Below are positions 18,426-52,149 of a stretch of DNA of 52,149 nucleotides, piece by piece; positions within the stretch are counted from its first letter, which is position 1; each line of letters starts with the position of its first letter. Below the pieces are notes generated by a model. That model was not told the origin of the DNA and searched no databases. It was given only the letters and a program-made list of their open reading frames with translations. The position numbers and the translations under genes are program-made. Source of the stretch: an uncultured bacterium (GTDB lineage Bacteria > Sysuimicrobiota > Sysuimicrobiia > Sysuimicrobiales > Humicultoraceae); NCBI GenBank assembly GCA_964526945.1, contig CAZGNA010000002.1:1-52149 (forward strand), read 5' to 3'.

Positions 18426-19916
18426 ATGGCGAGAGAGGAACCTGCCGGTTCCCAGGGAAGAGGACACCGAGGAGGACACGAGGTGAGCACCACCCCCGCG
18501 GCCGCTGCGCGCGCGGAAGACGAGGCTGCAGCCTACGAGGCGTTCCTCGCCGCATACCCGGAGTACGCCGACACGCACCTGCTCGACGACCTGCGGGCCA
18601 GCGAGTACGCGCGGCTGGACGCTGTCGGGCACGTCTACCTCGACTACACCGGCGCGAGCCTCTACGCCGCCTCGCAGGTGACCGAGCACCACGCGCTGCT
18701 GCGCCGGCGCGTGCTGGGCAATCCCCATTCGCAGAACCCCCCCTCGGCCGAGGCCACCGCGCTGGTGGAGGAGGCCCGGCGGGCGGTGTTGCGCTTCTTC
18801 AACGCCTCGCCCGAGGAGTACGTGGCGATCTTCACGCCCAACGCCACGGGCGCCCTCAAACTGGTCGGCGAAGCCTATCCCTTCGGCCCCGCGGGCCGCT
18901 ACCTGCTGACCTTCGACAACCACAACTCGGTGAACGGCATCCGCGAGTTCGCGCGCGCCCGCGGCGCGACGGTGACCTACGTGCCCCTGGTGCTCCCCGA
19001 CATGGGCGTCGACGAGGCACATCTCGACGCGCAGCTGCGGGCGGGGCCGGGCACCGCCGGCTTGTTCGCCTATCCCGCGCAGTCCAACTTCTCGGGCGTG
19101 CAGCACGCGCTGGCGTGGATCGACCGGGCGCACCACTACGGGTGGGACGTGCTGCTGGACGCCGCCGCGTTCGTGCCCACCAACCGGCTCGACCTCGGCC
19201 GGTGGAAGCCCGACTTCGTGGCGCTGTCGTTCTACAAAATGTTCGGGTACCCCACGGGGGTCGGGTGCCTGCTGGCGCGGCGCGCGGCGCTGGCGCGCCT
19301 GCGCCGTCCCTGGTTCGCCGGCGGGACGATCACCGTCGCCTCGGTCCAGGGCGACCGGCACTACCTGGCAGAGGGCGAGGCGGCCTTCGAGGACGGCACC
19401 CCGGACTTCCTGGCGATTCCCGCGGTGCCCATCGGGCTGCGGCACCTCGAGCGCATCGGCCTCGAGCGTCTGCACACGCGCCTGCGCTGCCTGACCGGAT
19501 GGCTGCTCGACCAGCTGCAGGCGCTCCGGCATCGGTCCGGTGCGCCGGTGGTGCGGATCTACGGCCCCACGACCACGGTCGGCCGGGGCGCCACGGTCAC
19601 CATGAACTTCTACGACGCCCGCGGGCGGTTCGTCGACCACCGCGCGGTCGAGCAGGAGGCCGCCGCGGCGGCGATCGCGCTGCGCACGGGCTGTTTCTGC
19701 AACCCCGGGGGCGGCGAGGTGGCCCTGGGCCTGGACCGCACCGAGCTCGTCGCCTGCTTCAGTCGGCCGACCGACCGGTTGACCATGGAGGACTTCCGGC
19801 GGTGCATCGATGGCAAGAGCAGCGGCGCCGTGCGCGTGTCGCTGGGGATCGCCAGCACCTTCGCCGACGTCTACCGGTTCGTGGCGTTCGCGCGCGGGTT
19901 CGTCGACCGGGGCTGA
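18426..19916 (+). CDS. class V aminotransferase / molybdenum-cofactor-sulfurase-like NifS domain protein (no MOSC domain)
   Basis: 'LDYTGASL', 'GNPHS', PLP-Lys block 'SFYKMFGYPTGVGCLL' and 'CFCNPGG' match the N-terminal domain of Moco sulfurases. GTG 18483 with GAGGAGGA upstream is an alternative start. Confidence 0.75.
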   Translation: MAREEPAGSQGRGHRGGHEVSTTPAAAARAEDEAAAYEAFLAAYPEYADTHLLDDLRASEYARLDAVGHVYLDYTGASLYAASQVTEHHALLRRRVLGNPHSQNPPSAEATALVEEARRAVLRFFNASPEEYVAIFTPNATGALKLVGEAYPFGPAGRYLLTFDNHNSVNGIREFARARGATVTYVPLVLPDMGVDEAHLDAQLRAGPGTAGLFAYPAQSNFSGVQHALAWIDRAHHYGWDVLLDAAAFVPTNRLDLGRWKPDFVALSFYKMFGYPTGVGCLLARRAALARLRRPWFAGGTITVASVQGDRHYLAEGEAAFEDGTPDFLAIPAVPIGLRHLERIGLERLHTRLRCLTGWLLDQLQALRHRSGAPVVRIYGPTTTVGRGATVTMNFYDARGRFVDHRAVEQEAAAAAIALRTGCFCNPGGGEVALGLDRTELVACFSRPTDRLTMEDFRRCIDGKSSGAVRVSLGIASTFADVYRFVAFARGFVDRG

Positions 19917-20176
19917 GGGCGGCGGCACCCGGCGCTCCTCCAGGCGCGAGTCGAACAGCGTCGGTAGGGACACGCGGGACCGGAGCCCGTCGGCGTCGGC
20001 GAGGGCGAAGAGGACCGGCCGCCACCCCTCGCGCAGCGTGATCTCGGGGGCCACATCCGCGCCCGCCGGGGCGCAGGGTGAACCTGCTGGTGGCCGTGCG
20101 CCCCCAGCTCGCGGCGCGGGCCGGCACCCTGCCCGCGACGGTGCTGTCCTTCCGCAGTGGCATCCTGCTGCGCGAC

Positions 20177-20202
20177 CTGCTGCCGCGGCCTGCTGCCGCG
20201 GC
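20177..20202. repeat. perfect 13-bp tandem duplication (CTGCTGCCGCGGC x2)
   Basis: Read directly: 20177-20189 and 20190-20202 are identical and adjacent. They lie in the 384-bp gap between convergent genes. Confidence 0.95.
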
Positions 20203-26413: not shown

Positions 26414-27616
26414 TCACGCCGTCCCCCACACCGGCCGCAGGGTCTCCACGATCCGACGCGACGCCCCCGCCTGTGCCGGGATCACCGTCAGGGCCTCGGC
26501 CAGCGCCTGCCGTGCCGCCGGATTGCGCAGCAGGCCGGCCGCCTCGGCGGCGACCTCGGCTGGCGTCACCGCGCCGACCAGCTCGGGCATGATGCGTCGG
26601 CGCGCCCACATGTTGGGCAGCGCCACGTAGGGCGCGCGGCGCAGGTACTGCCGGGCCAGGAAGAGCTTCAACGCCGGGCCCACGCCCGGGATGCGGCTGA
26701 GCCACTCGATGACGCCCTCGGCGGGAATCTGCACCGAGAACGTCGTGGGGAGCACGACGATGCTGGGGATGCGGAGCAGCGCCAGCTCCAGCGTGTTCGT
26801 CCCCGGCAAGGTCAGCACCAGGGCGGCGCCCGCGATGGCCGCCCAGCCCCCGTCGTCGACGCGCACGCCGGCGGCATCCAGCCCCGGGCGGTACCGTGCG
26901 ACCAGCGCGTCGCGGACCGCGGGCGAGACGAAGGGCGAGACGACGATCACCGGCTCCACGTCCGGCACCTGCGCGCGCAACGTGGCCGCGGTCTCCACCC
27001 AGAACGGGAAGAACGCCGAGAAGACCGTGTCCCGGCTGCCCGCCAGGAACGCCACGCGCAGGCCAGACGCCCGCACCGCCGCCAGGCGGCCTCGCACGGC
27101 CTCCAGGGCGTCGCGGCGGGGGTCGCCGGTGATGGTGACCTTGGCCGCGGGCACGCCCCGGCGGCGCAGACGGTCGGCAATGGCCTCGGTGGGCACGAAG
27201 ATCCGCTCGTAGGCCCGGTGCTGGCGCGCGATGTGCGCCCGCTCCACGAACGCGAACGCCCGGGCGCGCCACCGCCGCGCCAGGCGCCGCGAGTACCAGA
27301 AGTCGCCGCCCACGTGCAGCACCGCGACCCGATCTGCAGGCCGCCAGTCGTGCAGCCCCAGGCCCAGGCGCAGCGTGGCCCGCGGGTCGAGCACGCGGTC
27401 GAACACGCCCGCGGCCGCGGCGGCCGCTGCCTCCTGCCCGCTGGCGAACTGGCACGGCGGCAGGCACAGGTGCACGGCCAGCGCGCGTCCAACCGCCTGG
27501 GCCCAGCGCCGCGCCTCGGCGGCGATCGGCACGGCCCAGCCGGCCACCTCGCCGGGACCGTTGCCCACGATCACCAGCGCGTGATGCGCCCCATTTTCTG
27601 ACGTGTTCTCTTTCAT
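26414..27616 (-). CDS. lpxB: lipid-A-disaccharide synthase-like glycosyltransferase (LpxB/GT19-like)
   Basis: 400 aa. 'LPGTNTLELALLRIPSIVV' and 'VALPNMWARRRIMPELVG' resemble the LpxB C-terminal nucleotide-sugar site. It is the first gene of the minus-strand operon. Confidence 0.65.
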   Translation of the reverse strand: MKENTSENGAHHALVIVGNGPGEVAGWAVPIAAEARRWAQAVGRALAVHLCLPPCQFASGQEAAAAAAAGVFDRVLDPRATLRLGLGLHDWRPADRVAVLHVGGDFWYSRRLARRWRARAFAFVERAHIARQHRAYERIFVPTEAIADRLRRRGVPAAKVTITGDPRRDALEAVRGRLAAVRASGLRVAFLAGSRDTVFSAFFPFWVETAATLRAQVPDVEPVIVVSPFVSPAVRDALVARYRPGLDAAGVRVDDGGWAAIAGAALVLTLPGTNTLELALLRIPSIVVLPTTFSVQIPAEGVIEWLSRIPGVGPALKLFLARQYLRRAPYVALPNMWARRRIMPELVGAVTPAEVAAEAAGLLRNPAARQALAEALTVIPAQAGASRRIVETLRPVWGTA

Positions 27617-27811
27617 ACTCCTCGGCTCATACTGCCCAGCTCATACTGCCCGGCTCATACTGCCCAGCTCATACTGCCCGGTTCATGCTCCCCGGCTCAT
27701 CTTCCCGGCCCATCTCCTTGGCTCGTCTCCTTGGCTCATCTCCTCGTCTGACACTCCTCGCCTCCTCGCTCGTGCTCCTCGGCTCATATTCCTCGCCTCG
27801 TCTTCCTCACG
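27611..27811 (-). repeat. degenerate 13-14-nt tandem repeat array (~14 units) forming overlapping mini-ORFs in the lpxB-like leader
   Basis: Four perfect copies of GCTCATACTGCCC[A/G] lie at 27625-27680. They are flanked by diverged copies such as GTTCATGCTCCCCG, GCTCATCTTCCCG, GCCCATCTCCTTG, GCTCGTCTCCTTG and GCTCATCTCCTCG. The sense strand reads (SD-like purine box)+ATGAGC. Confidence 0.95.
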
Positions 27812-27833
27812 CAACATGTCTTGCCAAGATTCC

Positions 27834-28673
27834 TCATGCTTCCACCTGGTATTCCTTCGCCTCATGCCCCTCCGGTCGCCCGTCCGCGGGCTGTGCGCCC
27901 GTGCGCTGGAAGCGGGCAAGGCGCCCGGCCCGTGCCACGGTCGCACGCTGCGTCTCCGTCTTTAGTGTCCGATCAGCCGGTCGCACCAGTGCGCCACGAA
28001 CTCCGCATCCTCCAGCGCCAGGGCGGCGTCGCGTTCCGCGTAGAGGTCCTGGGGCGCCCTCGCAGTGGTCTCGTCGCCGTAGAAGTCCGTTCGCGCTCGC
28101 GGGCCAGGCGACGATTGGGCCTCGGCCATCTCGTGGTTGGTCACAGCTCAAAGATCTCCCCGGCCGAAAGTCGGGCTTGAGGTCCCAATACCATGCCCGG
28201 CCCCTGCGTACGCGGCGGGCCCCCAACGCCGCCAGGCGCTCCCGCAGCCGCCCGAGGATCGTGGCAAAGAAGCCGTCACGGTCGTACAGCAGGTCCCCGT
28301 CCTCCACCATGTCGAGGTAGAGCAGGGTGATCCGCTGCGCCTCCTCTGGCGTCTTGAGGATGGGGCGGACGTCGGTCACGATCCCCTCGCGGCGCAAGCG
28401 CACCCGCTCGGGCTCGAGGCGCGCATCGGCCGCCTGGAGCACGTCGTGGCGGACCAGCTGGGAGGGCGGCAGCCCTTCGACCACGAGTAGCAGGTCGATG
28501 TCGGACACCGGACCTGCCTCTCCCCTGTCCCCCGATCCGAAGAGGACTGCCGAGACCAACGCCGGCCCCGCACTCTCCTGGAGGGCAGCCACGTACAGCC
28601 TGGCCAGATCGCGGAGCCGCTGCGCGAGCTCCGGCCCGTGAGGGCGGGTCACCGCGTGCATCGGTCTTACCAT
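27834..28673 (-). CDS. minimal nucleotidyltransferase (MNT, Pol-beta superfamily); the last ~100 codons look like frameshift read-through
   Basis: 'LFGSGDRGEAGPVSDIDLLLVV' NTase motif. The sequence after 'WYWDLKPDFRPG' becomes R/G/P-rich junk. Shifting one base at the C4 run 28158-28161 gives '...PGEIFEL*' with a stop at 28141-28143. Confidence 0.7.
   Translation of the reverse strand: MVRPMHAVTRPHGPELAQRLRDLARLYVAALQESAGPALVSAVLFGSGDRGEAGPVSDIDLLLVVEGLPPSQLVRHDVLQAADARLEPERVRLRREGIVTDVRPILKTPEEAQRITLLYLDMVEDGDLLYDRDGFFATILGRLRERLAALGARRVRRGRAWYWDLKPDFRPGRSLSCDQPRDGRGPIVAWPASANGLLRRRDHCEGAPGPLRGTRRRPGAGGCGVRGALVRPADRTLKTETQRATVARAGRLARFQRTGAQPADGRPEGHEAKEYQVEA
27962..28144 (-). pseudogene. 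HEPN-domain remnant (C-terminal third only), partner of the upstream MNT
   Basis: 60-aa ORF. Its tail 'APQDLYAERDAALALEDAEFVAHWCDRLI' resembles the last helix pair of HEPN proteins, but the Rx4-6H region is absent. GTG 28144 would overlap the corrected-frame MNT stop (GTGA). Confidence 0.35.
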
Positions 28674-28874
28674 ATCATACCCGGGTGTGGATACCCGTAC
28701 TTCGTCTGCCGATGCCCGCACCCGCGTGACGGTACCAGCGACCCGCGCGCCGAACGCTCCCGCAAGAGTGCGCCGGTGGCAGGAACGACCCTCAGGCGCC
28801 CGAATACCGCGAGAAGATCGCGTACAGCCCGCACCTGGGGACCACGGGACTGCGACCGCTCGGAGAGGTGTGGT

Positions 28875-30389
28875 GTGCGGTGGAGCCTGTTGCTGGCGCT
28901 CGGGCTGCTCCTGGTCGTCGCCGGCCGCGCCAGCGCCCAACCGATCCCGATCACCGTGGAGGCCGACGTCATCACCTATGACGCCGTCCAGCAGGTCGTC
29001 ACCGCACAGGGCAACGTTCGGACCACGTTCCGCCGCTACCGGCTGACCGCCGACGCCGCCCGCATGGACCTGCGGACCGGGGTGGTCACCGCGCGCGGCC
29101 GCGTTTTGCTGGTCGACGGCGAGGGCCGGCAGCTGCGGGGCGCGGCGTTGACGTACAACAGCCGCACCGACCAGGGCGTCCTCGAGCCCGTCGAGGGGCA
29201 CTTCGAGCAGCGGGTGTACCTGCGCGGGCAGCGGCTGGAGGCGACGCCGGCCCTGCTGGTGGCGCACGAGGCGACGGTGACCCCCTGCGACCCTGCGCAG
29301 CCGCTCTTCCGCGTGGTCGCCCGCCGCATCGAGATCGTCCCCGATCGCGAGGTCGTCGCGCACGACGCCAGCCTCTACCTGGGCACCCGGCGCCTGGTGA
29401 CGCTGCCCCGGTACGAGATCTCGCTGCAGCCTCCGGAGGTGCGCACGCAGTTCCCGGGCTTCGGCGCCAGCGCCGTCGAGGGACTCTGGGCCGACTACCG
29501 GTTCCCGCTCCGGGTCGGCGCCGCCCGCGGGCGCGTCCACCTGCGGGTCGGCACGCTTACGGGCCTGGCGGGCCTGGCCACGCTCACCTACGACGGGCCC
29601 CGCTACACCGCGTCGTTTCGCGTCGGCCGCACCCAGACCGTCGACGACCGCCCGAGCTTCGATGCGTTGCAGTACGATGTGGCCGAGGCGCAGGTGGCCA
29701 CCGCCAGCGCGCGCCTGGCGGGCCTGCCGCTGTCGTGGACCGCCACGGTGGCCGGCGGCTGGTACCGGGAGCTTGCCACCGGCACCGCCACGACGCGCCT
29801 CGACGGCCAGCTGCGTCTGGCCACCGACGTCTTCCCGCTGGGCGAGCGGCTGACCGTTGCCGCCTTTGCGGGCATCCGGGGTTCCGCCTACGGCACCGGC
29901 GCGGTGCGGACCGTCGCCTCGTACGGGGCGACGCTGACCTACCGCCTCGACCGGTTCACGACCGCGACCCTGGGTTACGGCCGCGACGTGGTGCGCGGCG
30001 CCACGCCGCTCCAGATCGACGTCGTAGACCCCGCCGACACCCTCAGCGTGCGCCTGACCCGCGTGGTGCCCGACCGCTACCGCGTCGCCGCCGGCATCGC
30101 CTGGAACGCCGCGCTGGCCGAGACCAAGTACAGCGCGTCGATCGGCGTGGTCGTCGCGCCCCGGTGGGAGCTGGGCCTGGCCGCCGTGTACAACACGCGG
30201 CTGGCCGCCTTCGAGGACATCGACTACACTGTCCGGTGGGTCTGCGACTGCGTGGACGTGGTGGTCGGTTACCGCCAGATGCGCCGGCAGGTCGTGCTCG
30301 AGGTCGGACTGTTCGGCCTGCCGCCGCGGGGCGATCCGTTCGTGCCCCGGACGCCGCTGCCCATGCGCACCTTCGAGCCCCAGCCATGA
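28875..30389 (+). CDS. LptD/OstA-like outer-membrane protein (short, ~504 aa)
   Basis: GGAGAGG RBS before GTG 28875. Signal 'VRWSLLLALGLLLVVAGRASAQP', then an OstA_N-like 'ITVEADVITYDAVQQVVTAQGNVRTTFRRYRLTADAARMD'. The long C-terminal region has alternating beta-strand patterns. Confidence 0.6.
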   Translation: MRWSLLLALGLLLVVAGRASAQPIPITVEADVITYDAVQQVVTAQGNVRTTFRRYRLTADAARMDLRTGVVTARGRVLLVDGEGRQLRGAALTYNSRTDQGVLEPVEGHFEQRVYLRGQRLEATPALLVAHEATVTPCDPAQPLFRVVARRIEIVPDREVVAHDASLYLGTRRLVTLPRYEISLQPPEVRTQFPGFGASAVEGLWADYRFPLRVGAARGRVHLRVGTLTGLAGLATLTYDGPRYTASFRVGRTQTVDDRPSFDALQYDVAEAQVATASARLAGLPLSWTATVAGGWYRELATGTATTRLDGQLRLATDVFPLGERLTVAAFAGIRGSAYGTGAVRTVASYGATLTYRLDRFTTATLGYGRDVVRGATPLQIDVVDPADTLSVRLTRVVPDRYRVAAGIAWNAALAETKYSASIGVVVAPRWELGLAAVYNTRLAAFEDIDYTVRWVCDCVDVVVGYRQMRRQVVLEVGLFGLPPRGDPFVPRTPLPMRTFEPQP

Positions 30390-51511: not shown

Positions 51512-51543
51512 ATCCAGGGATCCAGGGATCCAGGGATCCAGGG
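51512..51543. repeat. octanucleotide SSR (ATCCAGGG)x4, creating three GGATCC palindromes
   Basis: Read directly: c-ATCCAGGG-ATCCAGGG-ATCCAGGG-ATCCAGGG-ataatt, in the 302-bp intergenic region upstream of the last gene. Confidence 0.95.
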
Positions 51544-51596
51544 ATAATTCGCACTCTAATGGGGCAGTATTCTCAGTGGAGAGCAGCCTAAACCGA

Positions 51597-51628: not shown

Positions 51629-52149
51629 GTGCCGCGCTACCTCGTGACCGGCGGCGCGGGCTTCATCGGGGCGCACCTCGTGCGCGCCCTGGTGGAGCGT
51701 GACCAGCCGGTCCGGGTCCTGGACAACTTCTCGACGGGGACGTCCGCCAACCTGGCGCACGTCCTGAGCCAGCCCGTGCCCCAGCTGACGCCGGGCGACT
51801 GCGTGCGCGTGGGCCCGGTGGAGGTCCTCCACGGCGACGTGCGCGACCTGGAGGTCTGCCGGCGGGCGTGCGCCGGCGTGGAGGTGGTCTTCCACCAGGC
51901 GGCGATGCGCTCGGTGCCGCGTTCGGTGGACGATCCGCAGGGCGCCCACGCGCACAACGCCACGGGCACCCTGCACGTGCTGCTGGCGGCCGCGCAGGCC
52001 GGCGTGCGCCGGGTCGTCTACGCCTCGTCGTCGTCGGTCTACGGCGACACGCCCGCCCTGCCGAAGGTCGAGACGATGCCGCCCCAGCCGCTCTCGCCGT
52101 ATGCCGTCTCGAAGCTCGCTGGCGAGCAGTACATGCGCGTCTTCGCGCA
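51629..52149 (+). CDS. NAD-dependent nucleotide-sugar epimerase/dehydratase (WbpP/TviC/Gne-like), 3'-truncated by the window edge
   Basis: Not in the ORF track because there is no stop. GTG 51629 follows AAGGAG. Translation begins 'VPRYLVTGGAGFIGAHLVRALV...VFHQAAMRSVPRS...YASSSSVYGD...SPYAVSKLAGE' (GxxGxxG and YxxxK). Confidence 0.85.
   Translation, partial: MPRYLVTGGAGFIGAHLVRALVERDQPVRVLDNFSTGTSANLAHVLSQPVPQLTPGDCVRVGPVEVLHGDVRDLEVCRRACAGVEVVFHQAAMRSVPRSVDDPQGAHAHNATGTLHVLLAAAQAGVRRVVYASSSSVYGDTPALPKVETMPPQPLSPYAVSKLAGEQYMRVFA

What the first reader, a model, noticed from the sequence alone, without database searches (positions are those of the whole stretch)
27613..27811. Tandem 13-14-nt repeat array that builds a six-step relay of overlapping 5-codon mini-ORFs ending on the lpxB-like start codon
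Seen directly: plus strand 27611-27811 is about 14 head-to-tail copies of GCTCATACTGCCC[A/G]. Four are perfect 14-nt copies (27625-27680), followed by diverged 13-, 14- and 21-nt copies. The period is not a multiple of 3. Local GC is about 55% in a window of 70% or more.

On the minus strand (sense for the operon) each unit is a purine-rich SD-like box plus ATGAGC, for example CGAGGAG(T)ATGAGC, CAAGGAGATGGGC and [C/T]GGGCAGTATGAGC. Because the period is 14, each ATG opens an 18-nt ORF whose TGA overlaps the next ATG (ATGA):
- 27700-27683 MSRGA*
- 27686-27669 MNRAV*
- 27672-27655 MSWAV*
- 27658-27641 MSRAV*
- 27644-27627 MSWAV*
- 27630-27613 MSRGV*

The last TGA overlaps the ATG (27616) of the 400-aa LpxB-like gene. 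That gene's own GAGGAG box is only 1 nt from the ATG, too close for a normal SD.

Inference: this is either a termination-reinitiation relay or translational gate for the envelope-glycolipid operon, or a slippage-prone VNTR that varies leader length. I am not aware of a described leader with this architecture.
Basis: partly seen in the sequence, partly recalled or inferred. Interest (0 to 1): 0.8.

Follow-up and report, generated by a model that had tools for sequence, protein, structure and literature searches.

The report
Start-site-derived tandem repeat before lpxB-like gene
A short stretch holding a gene's ribosome-binding box and start codon has been copied head-to-tail about a dozen times in front of an envelope-sugar gene in two related hot-spring bacteria; the chain of tiny overlapping reading frames is real, but it follows automatically from the repeat's length and resembles known repeat elements in mycobacteria.

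Summary
A 13-14-nt tandem array lies at 27613-27811, and all six 5-codon mini-ORFs, their coordinates and the final ATGA on the lpxB-like start are exact.

The array is the proximal part of a ~255-nt purine-rich minisatellite (27617-27872, sense = minus strand). It fills the spacer between a decaying MNT-HEPN toxin-antitoxin cassette and an LpxB-like glycosyltransferase gene.

**Comparison with relatives**
- A sister genome (L023, 96% aa identity) has an orthologous array with different units (13-nt GAGGRGATGGGYC) and unit-sized indels.
- Relatives at 84-90% identity have 13-74-nt spacers with one copy of the motif.
- So this is a lineage-specific VNTR, apparently built by tandem duplication of the gene's own initiation region.

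**The relay**
- It is arithmetic. Every unit carries ATGA and the period is not a multiple of 3, so each frame closes on an ATGA.
- All 76 simulated whole-unit deletions or duplications in the window keep it.
- About 28% of shuffled leaders are equally free of overrunning uORFs.
- There is no sign of constraint: the proximal array diverges faster than four-fold sites.

The closest precedents are MIRU-VNTRs (-4 coupling) and TAACTGA heptamer repeats. Function as a relay is untested. Moderate interest.

The parts
26414..27616 (-). LpxB-like glycosyltransferase gene (400 aa). First gene of an lpxB-like / MsbA-like ABC exporter / GT2 / GT2 run.
   Evidence: Pfam LpxB 3.4e-08. TIGR00215 scores 49.5 bits, well below its 190-bit cut-off, so it is 'LpxB-like' and not an equivalog. 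GC3 is 0.93. The N-terminus is conserved in relatives.
27610..27623 (-). Terminal unit, which is the authentic initiation region: GAGGAG-T-ATGAAAG. ATG at 27616-27614; overlapping TGA at 27615-27613.
   Evidence: The SD-like box scores -8.2 kcal/mol with a gap of 0-1 nt. Reference starts in the clade have gaps of 2-4 nt.
27624..27679 (-). Four 14-nt units GGGCAGTATGAGC[C/T], which are two perfect 28-mers. This is the youngest expansion and is specific to the window genome.
   Evidence: These units are absent from L023.
27680..27732 (-). One 14-nt unit (GGGGAGCATGAACC) and three 13-nt units (GGGAAGATGAGCC, AAGGAGATGGGCC, AAGGAGACGAGCC).
   Evidence: They are alignable to the L023 13-nt units at 77% identity.
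27733..27794 (-). Older, degenerate units (34 + 14 + 14 nt), including GAGGAATATGAGCC and GAGGAGCACGAGCG.
   Evidence: Orthologous in L023, with a 16-nt indel.
27795..27872 (-). Distal purine-rich part with ATGs at 27865, 27837 and 27817. Its 5' edge (GGAGGGGCATGAGGCGAAGG) aligns to the single initiation region of array-less relatives.
   Evidence: It is 92-94% identical to L023.
27613..27700 (-). Six 5-codon mini-ORFs joined by ATGA overlaps, ending on the lpxB-like ATG.
27683..27837 (-). Two longer uORFs: 27837-27784 (17 aa) and 27787-27683 (34 aa). They link by ATGA to each other, to the stop of the frameshifted MNT ORF (TGA 27836-27834) and to the mini-ORF chain.
27873..27961 (-). Non-repetitive spacer after the HEPN stop codon. 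Its first ~47 nt after the stop are shared with array-less relatives; the rest (~27873-27914) aligns only to L023.
27962..28144 (-). HEPN-toxin remnant: 60 aa against 138 aa in relatives, an internal deletion of about 78 residues.
28145..28661 (-). MNT-type nucleotidyltransferase (antitoxin-like) gene. It is frameshifted at a 4-G run (28161-28158; 5 G in L023), so the frame as read runs on to 27834.
28668..28681 (-). GGTATGATATGGTA, a -10-like motif 7 nt upstream of the MNT ATG. It is the inferred promoter of the whole run.
   Evidence: The motif is kept in every cassette-bearing relative, and in L022 where the cassette itself is deleted. The sigma-70 consensus scan found nothing in 27400-28800, so this is inference only.

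Best explanation
The array is a young, lineage-specific minisatellite (VNTR). It arose by repeated tandem duplication (replication slippage or unequal exchange) of the lpxB-like gene's own translation-initiation region: a purine SD box, ATG(A) and a few following bases, in 13-14-nt units. The newest and most uniform copies lie next to the gene and the older, decayed copies lie distally.

Every unit inherited ATGA, and the unit length is not a multiple of three. As a result every reading frame is closed within three units or fewer by a TGA that sits inside an ATGA, and the last such TGA overlaps the authentic start. The mini-ORF relay is therefore a by-product of how the array was built.

The likely consequence (inferred) is that the array is translationally self-insulating. 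It can grow, shrink and mutate without creating an N-terminal extension. It also avoids an out-of-frame ORF across the gene, whose +2 frame has no stop in 1203 nt. If the array is transcribed from the MNT promoter as part of the operon mRNA (inferred), ribosomes that start anywhere in it can be handed on by -4 termination-reinitiation to the real ATG. That would buffer expression against the spacer expansion, and would explain why the array is tolerated. I regard it as tolerated and near-neutral, not as a dedicated regulatory gate.
For: **Present only in one young lineage**
- The array is real and unique within the window.
- An orthologous array sits at the same site in L023, a 3.15-Mb contig. 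An independent Logan assembly, L024, is identical across the array region, which rules out an assembly artefact.
- The two carriers differ by unit-sized indels and by unit type: 14-nt GGGCAGTATGAGCY in the window against 13-nt GAGGRGATGGGYC in L023.
- The array is absent in relatives at 89-90% aa identity (L010, L021, L025, L026; 72-74-nt spacer) and at 84% (L015-L020, 13-nt spacer; L022). It is also absent in nine more distant genomes (TRF on all loci then held, L001-L024; L026).

**Derived from the initiation region**
- The terminal unit is the initiation region itself.
- The single-copy motif of array-less relatives (GAGGGAGATGGAC) matches the unit consensus.
- MAFFT aligns that motif to the distal edge of the array.

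**No sign of constraint**
- Identity between window and L023 is 77-79% in the proximal array and 92-94% in the distal leader. Four-fold sites of the flanking genes are 84-91% identical.
- uORF peptides and SD strength or spacing are not conserved.
- No RNA structure is conserved: z = -2.0 in the window and -0.2 in L023.
- There is no Rfam match.

**Relay is robust without selection**
- In the window, 76 of 76 whole-unit deletions or duplications stay clean. In L023 the figure is 62 of 68.
- 92-95% of random 1-20-nt indels stay clean.
- 28-30% of dinucleotide shuffles are clean by chance.

**Expansion-prone neighbourhood**
- L023 has a 15-nt x 5.8 array and L010 a 20-nt x 4.1 array in the adjacent intergenic region.
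- The upstream TA cassette is decaying in several lineages.
Against: - No transcript, ribosome or read-level data exist, so neutrality is inferred only from a two-genome comparison.
- Both carriers keep an unbroken ATGA path to the authentic start. Both keep 14-nt spacing in the last two units, which is what an adaptive relay would also predict. Those two units are orthologous, so this counts as one observation.
- The authentic start in the window lacks a well-spaced SD. The gene may therefore really depend on reinitiation from the last mini-ORF.
- The array has persisted through about 10% synonymous divergence.
Confidence: 0.6

Rival explanations
1. Adaptive translational relay or gate. The array was selected so that ribosomes initiate on upstream SD-ATG units and are passed by serial termination-reinitiation to a start codon that cannot recruit ribosomes well on its own. 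This would set or gate expression of the envelope-glycolipid operon.
For: - There is an unbroken chain of ATGA overlaps ending on the true start in both carriers. In the window it extends back to the stop of the upstream ORF.
- The window's main ATG has its SD box 0-1 nt away, against 2-4 nt at reference starts.
- The -4 overlap is the classical coupling geometry (PMC12548453).
- The sense strand is G-rich and C-poor, which makes it a poor Rho loading site.
Against: - The chain follows automatically from the unit sequence and period, and is robust to indels.
- Leaders free of overrunning uORFs are common by chance.
- The window's youngest units have almost no SD (-3 to -4 kcal/mol). In L023 the boxes lie 0 or 11-12 nt from the ATGs.
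- Close relatives express the same gene from 13-74-nt spacers, some with ordinary SDs.
- The array diverges faster than synonymous sites.
Confidence: 0.17
2. Contingency locus or expression rheostat. Slippage changes the unit number at high frequency within populations. Each added reinitiation step, or change of leader length, alters lpxB-like operon output and produces heritable variation in the envelope.
For: - Copy number and unit type differ between two genomes that are 96% identical in the protein.
- Two perfect 28-mers indicate very recent expansion.
- The downstream genes are surface-glycolipid genes, the usual class for phase-variable loci.
- Tandem repeats between promoter and start codon that affect expression are known in Moraxella (cited in PMC4679880).
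Against: - Whole-unit gains and losses do not change the frame or the final junction, so there is no on/off switch.
- There is no within-population data.
- Units of 13-14 nt with only 4-5 uniform copies slip much less than homopolymer or tetranucleotide tracts (general knowledge).
- Similar arrays occur in neighbouring non-leader DNA of relatives, which points to a general mutational tendency.
Confidence: 0.1
3. Array of binding sites. Either the repeated GGA/AGGAG motifs in the RNA titrate or recruit an RNA-binding protein (CsrA-, S1- or Csp-like), or the DNA direct repeats bind a regulator.
For: - The leader holds many GGA-containing purine boxes.
- Post-transcriptional regulators have been proposed for TAACTGA repeats next to start codons (PMC4679880).
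Against: - The window's youngest units replaced GAGGAG by GGGCAG, so the motif is not kept.
- No conserved hairpins present the GGA motifs.
- There is no Rfam sRNA match.
- The unit occurs at one locus only in 52 kb.
- The array is absent from close relatives.
Confidence: 0.05
4. Assembly or sequencing artefact.
For: - The window comes from a metagenome-assembled genome.
- The neighbouring MNT frameshift lies in a G run and could itself be a sequencing error.
Against: - An orthologous array is present in a second genome, and an independent assembly of it (L024) is identical to L023 across the array region.
- The units show graded divergence, as expected from real evolution.
- The perfect stretch is only 56 nt, shorter than a read.
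Confidence: 0.02

Closest known systems
MIRU-VNTR (mycobacterial interspersed repetitive units; Supply et al. 1997, as summarised in PMC12548453 and PMC3184786)
   Same: - Tandem units lie between co-oriented genes.
- Each unit carries a small ORF whose ends overlap the neighbouring ORFs, with -4 (ATGA-type) coupling to the downstream start.
- Copy number varies between strains.
- The proposed effect is that the insertion or expansion has minimal impact on downstream gene expression.
   Different: - MIRU units are 40-100 bp, are dispersed at about 40-50 loci, and look mobile or MITE-like, with target duplications.
- Here the units are 13-14 nt and occur at a single locus in the 52 kb.
- They derive from the gene's own initiation region and have no sequence similarity to MIRUs.
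- The host phylum is different (CSP1-3/Sysuimicrobiota, labelled Armatimonadota at NCBI).
Intergenic TAACTGA heptamer direct repeats of Beggiatoaceae, Cyanobacteria and Bacteroidetes (PMC4679880)
   Same: - Direct repeats lie immediately upstream of start codons.
- The period is not a multiple of 3.
- Stop codons occur in all three frames.
- Strain differences come in whole-unit increments.
- Function is unproven.
   Different: - TAACTGA repeats are genome-wide (169 sets in one genome).
- They have no start codon and no SD character, so they cannot form mini-ORFs or a reinitiation chain.
Translational coupling by termination-reinitiation at overlapping stop/start codons (ATGA, -4), reviewed in PMC12548453
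   Same: Each junction in the array, including the last one onto the lpxB-like gene, has the canonical -4 overlap.
   Different: - Known cases couple two real genes, or one leader ORF and a gene.
- A serial chain of 6-8 junctions made of repeat units has not, to my knowledge, been tested.
- Coupling here is not demonstrated.
Simple-sequence contingency loci of host-adapted bacteria (for example repeats between promoter and start codon in Moraxella uspA1/uspA2, cited in PMC4679880)
   Same: A repeat tract lies in the leader of a surface-structure gene, and its copy number is variable.
   Different: - The units are much longer.
- Unit changes do not shift the gene's frame or the promoter spacing in any way that can be shown here.
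- The organism is a free-living hot-spring bacterium.

Membership tests
MIRU-VNTR | Unit length about 40-100 bp with MIRU consensus sequence | tested here: not met
   Units are 12-14 nt. MIRU homology is not possible at this length.
MIRU-VNTR | Dispersed at many loci in the genome | tested here: not met
   The unit occurs at one locus only in 52 kb. The rest of the genome could not be searched.
MIRU-VNTR | Unit ORFs overlap the start or stop of flanking ORFs (-4 coupling to the downstream gene) | tested here: met
   There are ATGA overlaps at every junction and onto ATG 27616. The same holds in L023.
MIRU-VNTR | Copy number varies between strains | tested here: met
   Window and L023 differ by indels of 8, 16 and about 30 nt and by unit composition. 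This rests on only two genomes.
Termination-reinitiation coupling | Stop of the upstream ORF overlaps or abuts the start of the downstream ORF on one mRNA | tested here: inconclusive
   The overlaps are shown. A shared mRNA is only inferred from the conserved MNT-promoter motif and the 13-nt spacer in L015. No terminator is predicted on the sense strand.
Termination-reinitiation coupling | Downstream translation depends on upstream translation | not testable with these tools
   This needs reporters, Ribo-seq or toeprinting.
Phase-variable contingency locus | A change in repeat number switches the reading frame or promoter spacing on or off | tested here: not met
   All 76 whole-unit deletions and duplications in the window leave the main ORF and its ATGA junction intact. 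Promoter spacing is not testable because the TSS is unknown.
Regulatory leader peptide / attenuator uORF | Conserved leader peptide or conserved alternative RNA structures | tested here: not met
   Peptides differ between the carriers (MSWAV/MSRAV against MGRGD.../MSGGA). Frame-shifting indels separate them. Fold z-scores are -2.0 and -0.2 with no shared structure.
Known RNA families (Rfam 15) | Covariance-model match at or above the gathering score | tested here: not met
   The window gives no match at gathering score. The only sub-threshold hit is a chance ffh-sRNA match at E = 0.5 on the other strand, inside the CDS.
LpxB (lipid-A-disaccharide synthase) for the downstream gene | Score above the TIGR00215 equivalog cut-off | tested here: not met
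   It scores 49.5 bits against a 190-bit cut-off, and only about 100 residues match. It is 'LpxB-like', not a demonstrated LpxB.

The most novel reading that the evidence does not exclude
The array is an evolvable 'ribosome funnel'. It is a self-templated minisatellite of initiation sites that captures ribosomes in any frame and delivers them by 6-8 serial -4 reinitiation steps to a start codon lacking a usable SD. Unit number and unit SD strength would then act as a heritable rheostat for an envelope-glycolipid operon. In the window it would also couple the operon to translation of the upstream (frameshifted) MNT ORF across 345 nt.
Probability: 0.15. Interest if true: 0.65.

Novelty: new variant of a known kind. 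Interest (0 to 1): 0.35.

Why it matters
If the reading is right, this is a clean natural example of how a tandem repeat can expand at a translation start without harming the gene. Units that carry ATGA and have a length that is not a multiple of three close every frame and always end on a start codon. MIRUs are thought to exploit the same logic, but here it arises from the gene's own initiation region in an uncultivated phylum.

It also gives a testable design rule for serial reinitiation. One could measure how much translation survives 1, 3 or 6 consecutive -4 junctions. The locus is also a candidate VNTR marker for strain typing of these hot-spring bacteria.

If the array is merely neutral, the practical lesson is for annotation. 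Striking uORF relays can be arithmetic by-products of repeats.

Tried and rejected
- **Exact-protein look-ups.** I searched for other assemblies of the window's own strain so that I could count units. Nothing was on record for the LpxB-like protein or the ABC protein, whether starting with V or M.
- **Known RNA families.** Rfam gave nothing at gathering score and nothing meaningful at a permissive E-value.
- **Plasmid collection.** A blastn search found no match.
- **Promoter and terminator scan.** The sigma-70 scan of 27400-28800 found no promoter-like site. The only terminator-like hit was on the plus strand inside the CDS. The TSS therefore remains inferred.
- **Conserved leader RNA structure.** Rejected: z = -2.0 in the window, -0.2 in L023, and the folds differ.
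- **Small protein across the array.** The 87-aa ORF 27683-27946 and the 60-aa uORF from 27865 were rejected. Indels of 8, 1 and 16 nt against L023 shift the frame, the period is not a multiple of 3, and the peptides are not conserved.
- **N-terminal extension of the LpxB-like protein.** Rejected: there is an in-frame TGA at 27643-27641.
- **Significance test for 'no uORF overruns the start'.** Not significant: 28-30% of shuffled leaders behave the same way.
- **Units as copies of the TATAAT promoter.** I considered that the units (TATGAG) might be decayed copies of the TATAAT promoter seen 18-20 nt upstream of the gene in distant relatives. I did not pursue this. The -7 T is missing, and the array-less sister clade has no TATAAT there.
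Full report
**1. The observation**

The plus strand 27613-27811 does carry a tandem array.
- TRF reports 27613-27743 at period 14, 9.6 copies, 83% matches. The same stretch also scores as period 28, 3.6 copies, 86%.
- TRF also reports a 13-nt array at 27694-27744 and degenerate 14-nt rows up to 27808.
- This is by far the highest-scoring repeat in the 52-kb window. The exact 13-mer occurs only here, four times.
- Read on the minus (sense) strand, the region splits into units of 13 or 14 nt. Each is a purine box followed by ATG(A)GCC-like bases.
The last TGA overlaps ATG 27616.

Two corrections apply.
- GC of the stretch is 60.8%, against 71.5% for the window.
- The four perfect units carry GGGCAG, which has little anti-SD complementarity.

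The repetitive, purine-rich tract in fact extends to about 27872.

**2. Gene context**

The array lies in a 345-nt gap on the minus strand.
- Downstream are a 400-aa LpxB-like glycosyltransferase, an MsbA-like ABC exporter and two GT2 genes. The LpxB-like protein hits Pfam LpxB weakly and scores far below the TIGR00215 cut-off.
- Upstream is an MNT-type nucleotidyltransferase plus HEPN pair, a toxin-antitoxin-like cassette.
- Beyond that, divergently transcribed, are an LptD-like gene and glmM.
- The '1582-aa ORF' on the minus strand is mostly a high-GC artefact. Only its last part is real, and that part is the MNT gene.

In the window the cassette is decaying.
- MNT has a G run one base shorter than in L023 (4 G against 5), which shifts the frame so that it runs on to TGA 27836-27834.
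- HEPN has lost about 78 internal residues.

**3. Source and relatives**

The closest genomes are metagenome-assembled genomes labelled Armatimonadota, including several 'Candidatus Fervidifonticultor' species. That genus is placed in candidate phylum CSP1-3/Sysuimicrobiota, from hot springs (PMC11604079).

| Relative | aa identity to window LpxB-like | Spacer before the gene | Array? |
|---|---|---|---|
| L023 (3.15-Mb contig, GCA_031459855.1) and L024 (independent Logan assembly, identical over the array region) | 96% | 335 nt, same site | Orthologous array |
| L010, L021, L025, L026 | 89-90% | 72-74 nt, single GAGGGAG-ATGGAC | None |
| L015-L020 | 84% | 13 nt, ordinary SD (GGAGGGTACATG) | None |
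| L022 | 84% | Cassette lost; has GGAGGCGGTATG | None |
| L001-L009 | 57-69% | No cassette; TTGCGG-N17/18-TATAAT motif 18-20 nt before the ATG | None |

The L023 array differs from the window's.
- Its proximal units are mostly 13-nt GAGGRGATGGGYC, with single 12- and 14-nt units. It has none of the window's GGGCAGTATGAGCY units.
- The alignment shows indels of 8, 16 and about 30 nt.

TRF on the 24 loci then held (L001-L024, 151 kb) found comparable arrays only in L023/L024, plus two unrelated ones noted in section 9. L026's upstream region was checked separately.

**4. Origin of the units (inference from sequence)**

- The terminal unit is the gene's own initiation region: GAGGAGTATGAAAG in the window and GAGGAGCATGAAAG in L023.
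- The unit consensus resembles the single-copy motif of the array-less sister clade.
- MAFFT places that single-copy motif opposite the distal edge of the array, GGAGGGGCATGAGGCG.
- Uniform copies sit next to the gene and decayed ones sit distally.

This pattern is what repeated tandem duplication of the SD-ATG segment would produce.

**5. Why the relay exists**

Each unit carries ATGA, so a TGA lies one base after each ATG.
- With a 14-nt period, an ORF opened at one ATG meets the next unit's TGA in frame after five codons.
- With a 13-nt period, it meets the TGA two units on.
- Only periods divisible by three would escape this.

The counts agree.
- Ten of the 11 TGAs in the window's last 255 leader nucleotides, and 5 of 5 in L023's last 250, are inside ATGA. 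There are almost no other stops.
- In both genomes, every ATG-, GTG- or TTG-initiated ORF in the spacer ends at or before the ATGA of the true start.
- In the window the chain has eight consecutive ATGA junctions: MNT (frameshifted) stop 27836-27834, then ATGs at 27837, 27787, 27686, 27672, 27658, 27644, 27630 and finally 27616.

The property is robust without any fine tuning.
- All 76 simulated deletions or duplications of one to four whole units in the window keep it. In L023 the figure is 62 of 68.
- 92-95% of random 1-20-nt deletions or tandem duplications keep it.
- 28-30% of dinucleotide shuffles of the leader are also free of overrunning uORFs.

The cost of the alternative is high. The +2 frame of the gene has no stop in 1203 nt, so a misplaced ATG would open a 400-codon overlapping ORF. 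This gives a simple survivorship filter for which expansions persist.

**6. Evidence on constraint**

| Region compared (window against L023) | Identity |
|---|---|
| Four-fold degenerate sites, lpxB-like | 89% |
| Four-fold degenerate sites, ABC exporter | 91% |
| Four-fold degenerate sites, MNT | 84% |
| Distal leader | 92-94% |
| Proximal array | 77-79%, plus indels |

- The distal leader changes at roughly the neutral rate, and the array turns over faster than that.
- SD strength and spacing at the array ATGs are not conserved.
  - In the window's young units the pairing is weak.
  - In L023 the boxes are strong but sit 0 or 11-12 nt from the ATG.
  - Reference starts in the clade have gaps of 2-4 nt.
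- There is no conserved RNA fold and no Rfam family.

**7. Is the array transcribed? (inference)**

- No promoter or sense-strand terminator is predicted in the spacer.
- All cassette-bearing relatives keep GGTATG[G/A]TA(TGGTA) just upstream of the MNT start. L022 keeps it even though the cassette has been deleted.
- In L015 the lpxB-like ATG follows the HEPN stop by only 13 nt.

Together these suggest that the lpxB-like run is transcribed from the MNT promoter. The array would then be intercistronic RNA. This is not shown.

**8. Comparison with known systems**

- **MIRU-VNTRs** are the closest analogue. They are tandem intergenic units whose internal ORF is coupled at -4 to the downstream gene. 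This is thought to let the element sit at a start codon with little effect on expression (PMC12548453, citing Supply 1997; PMC3184786). The present array shares the logic but fails the family's defining features of unit size, dispersal and sequence.
- **TAACTGA heptamer repeats** are a second analogue. They lie upstream of start codons, have stops in all frames and show whole-unit strain differences (PMC4679880). They lack start codons.
- Classical -4 coupling describes each junction here but has not been demonstrated for this array.

I therefore class this as a new variant of a known kind.

**9. Verdict**

The VNTR reading is supported. The relay is a real but automatic property of the sequence. 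A dedicated regulatory role is possible but unsupported (about 0.15-0.25 across the relay and rheostat readings). Interest is moderate (0.35).

Things noticed in passing are listed separately. They include a perfect 8-nt x 4 repeat abutting a promoter-like stretch at 51512-51545 and other young arrays in the neighbouring intergenic region of relatives.

Noticed in passing
window 51512-51545 (+): A perfect 8-nt x 4.2 tandem repeat, ATCCAGGG, directly abuts an A+T-rich, promoter-like stretch (GGGATAATTCGCACTCTAATGGGG). It lies about 85 nt upstream of a GTG start at 51629 for an NAD-epimerase-like gene (VPRYLVTGGAGFIG) with an ordinary SD. It could be a repeat that alters promoter spacing.
   Followed up: no
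window 27962-28661 (-): The MNT-HEPN (type VII TA-like) cassette is decaying. MNT is frameshifted at a 4-G run (28161-28158; 5 G in L023), so the ORF runs on to 27834. HEPN has lost about 78 internal residues (60 aa against 138 aa). Independent deletions are seen in L026, and L022 has lost the cassette entirely.
   Followed up: partly
L023 1450-1538; L010 1893-1974: Other young tandem arrays (15-nt x 5.8 and 20-nt x 4.1) lie in the divergent LptD-like/MNT intergenic region of relatives. They are absent from the window's equivalent region (28662-28875). This suggests a general tendency to short tandem duplication in non-coding DNA of this clade.
   Followed up: partly
L001-L009, about 20-45 nt upstream of the lpxB-like ATG: A conserved TTGCGG-N17/18-TATAAT motif lies only 18-20 nt before the start codon, with no SD. 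This suggests very short-leader transcripts for this gene in cassette-free relatives.
   Followed up: no
window 26414-27616 (-), frame +2: The +2 frame of the lpxB-like CDS has no stop codon over all 1203 nt. This is a typical high-GC shadow ORF, and it corresponds to the many long overlapping ORFs listed for this window.
   Followed up: yes
window 28668-28681 (-) and equivalents in L010, L015, L022, L023, L025, L026: A GGTATG[G/A]TA(TGGTA) motif upstream of the MNT start is retained in all cassette-bearing relatives, and in L022 after loss of the cassette. It is a candidate -10 element driving the lpxB-like operon.
   Followed up: partly
window 20164-20202 (+): A 13-nt x 3.1 repeat (CCTGCTGCCGCGG, 92% matches) lies in what looks like a convergent intergenic region between genes ending near 19916 (+) and 20301 (-).
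   Followed up: no
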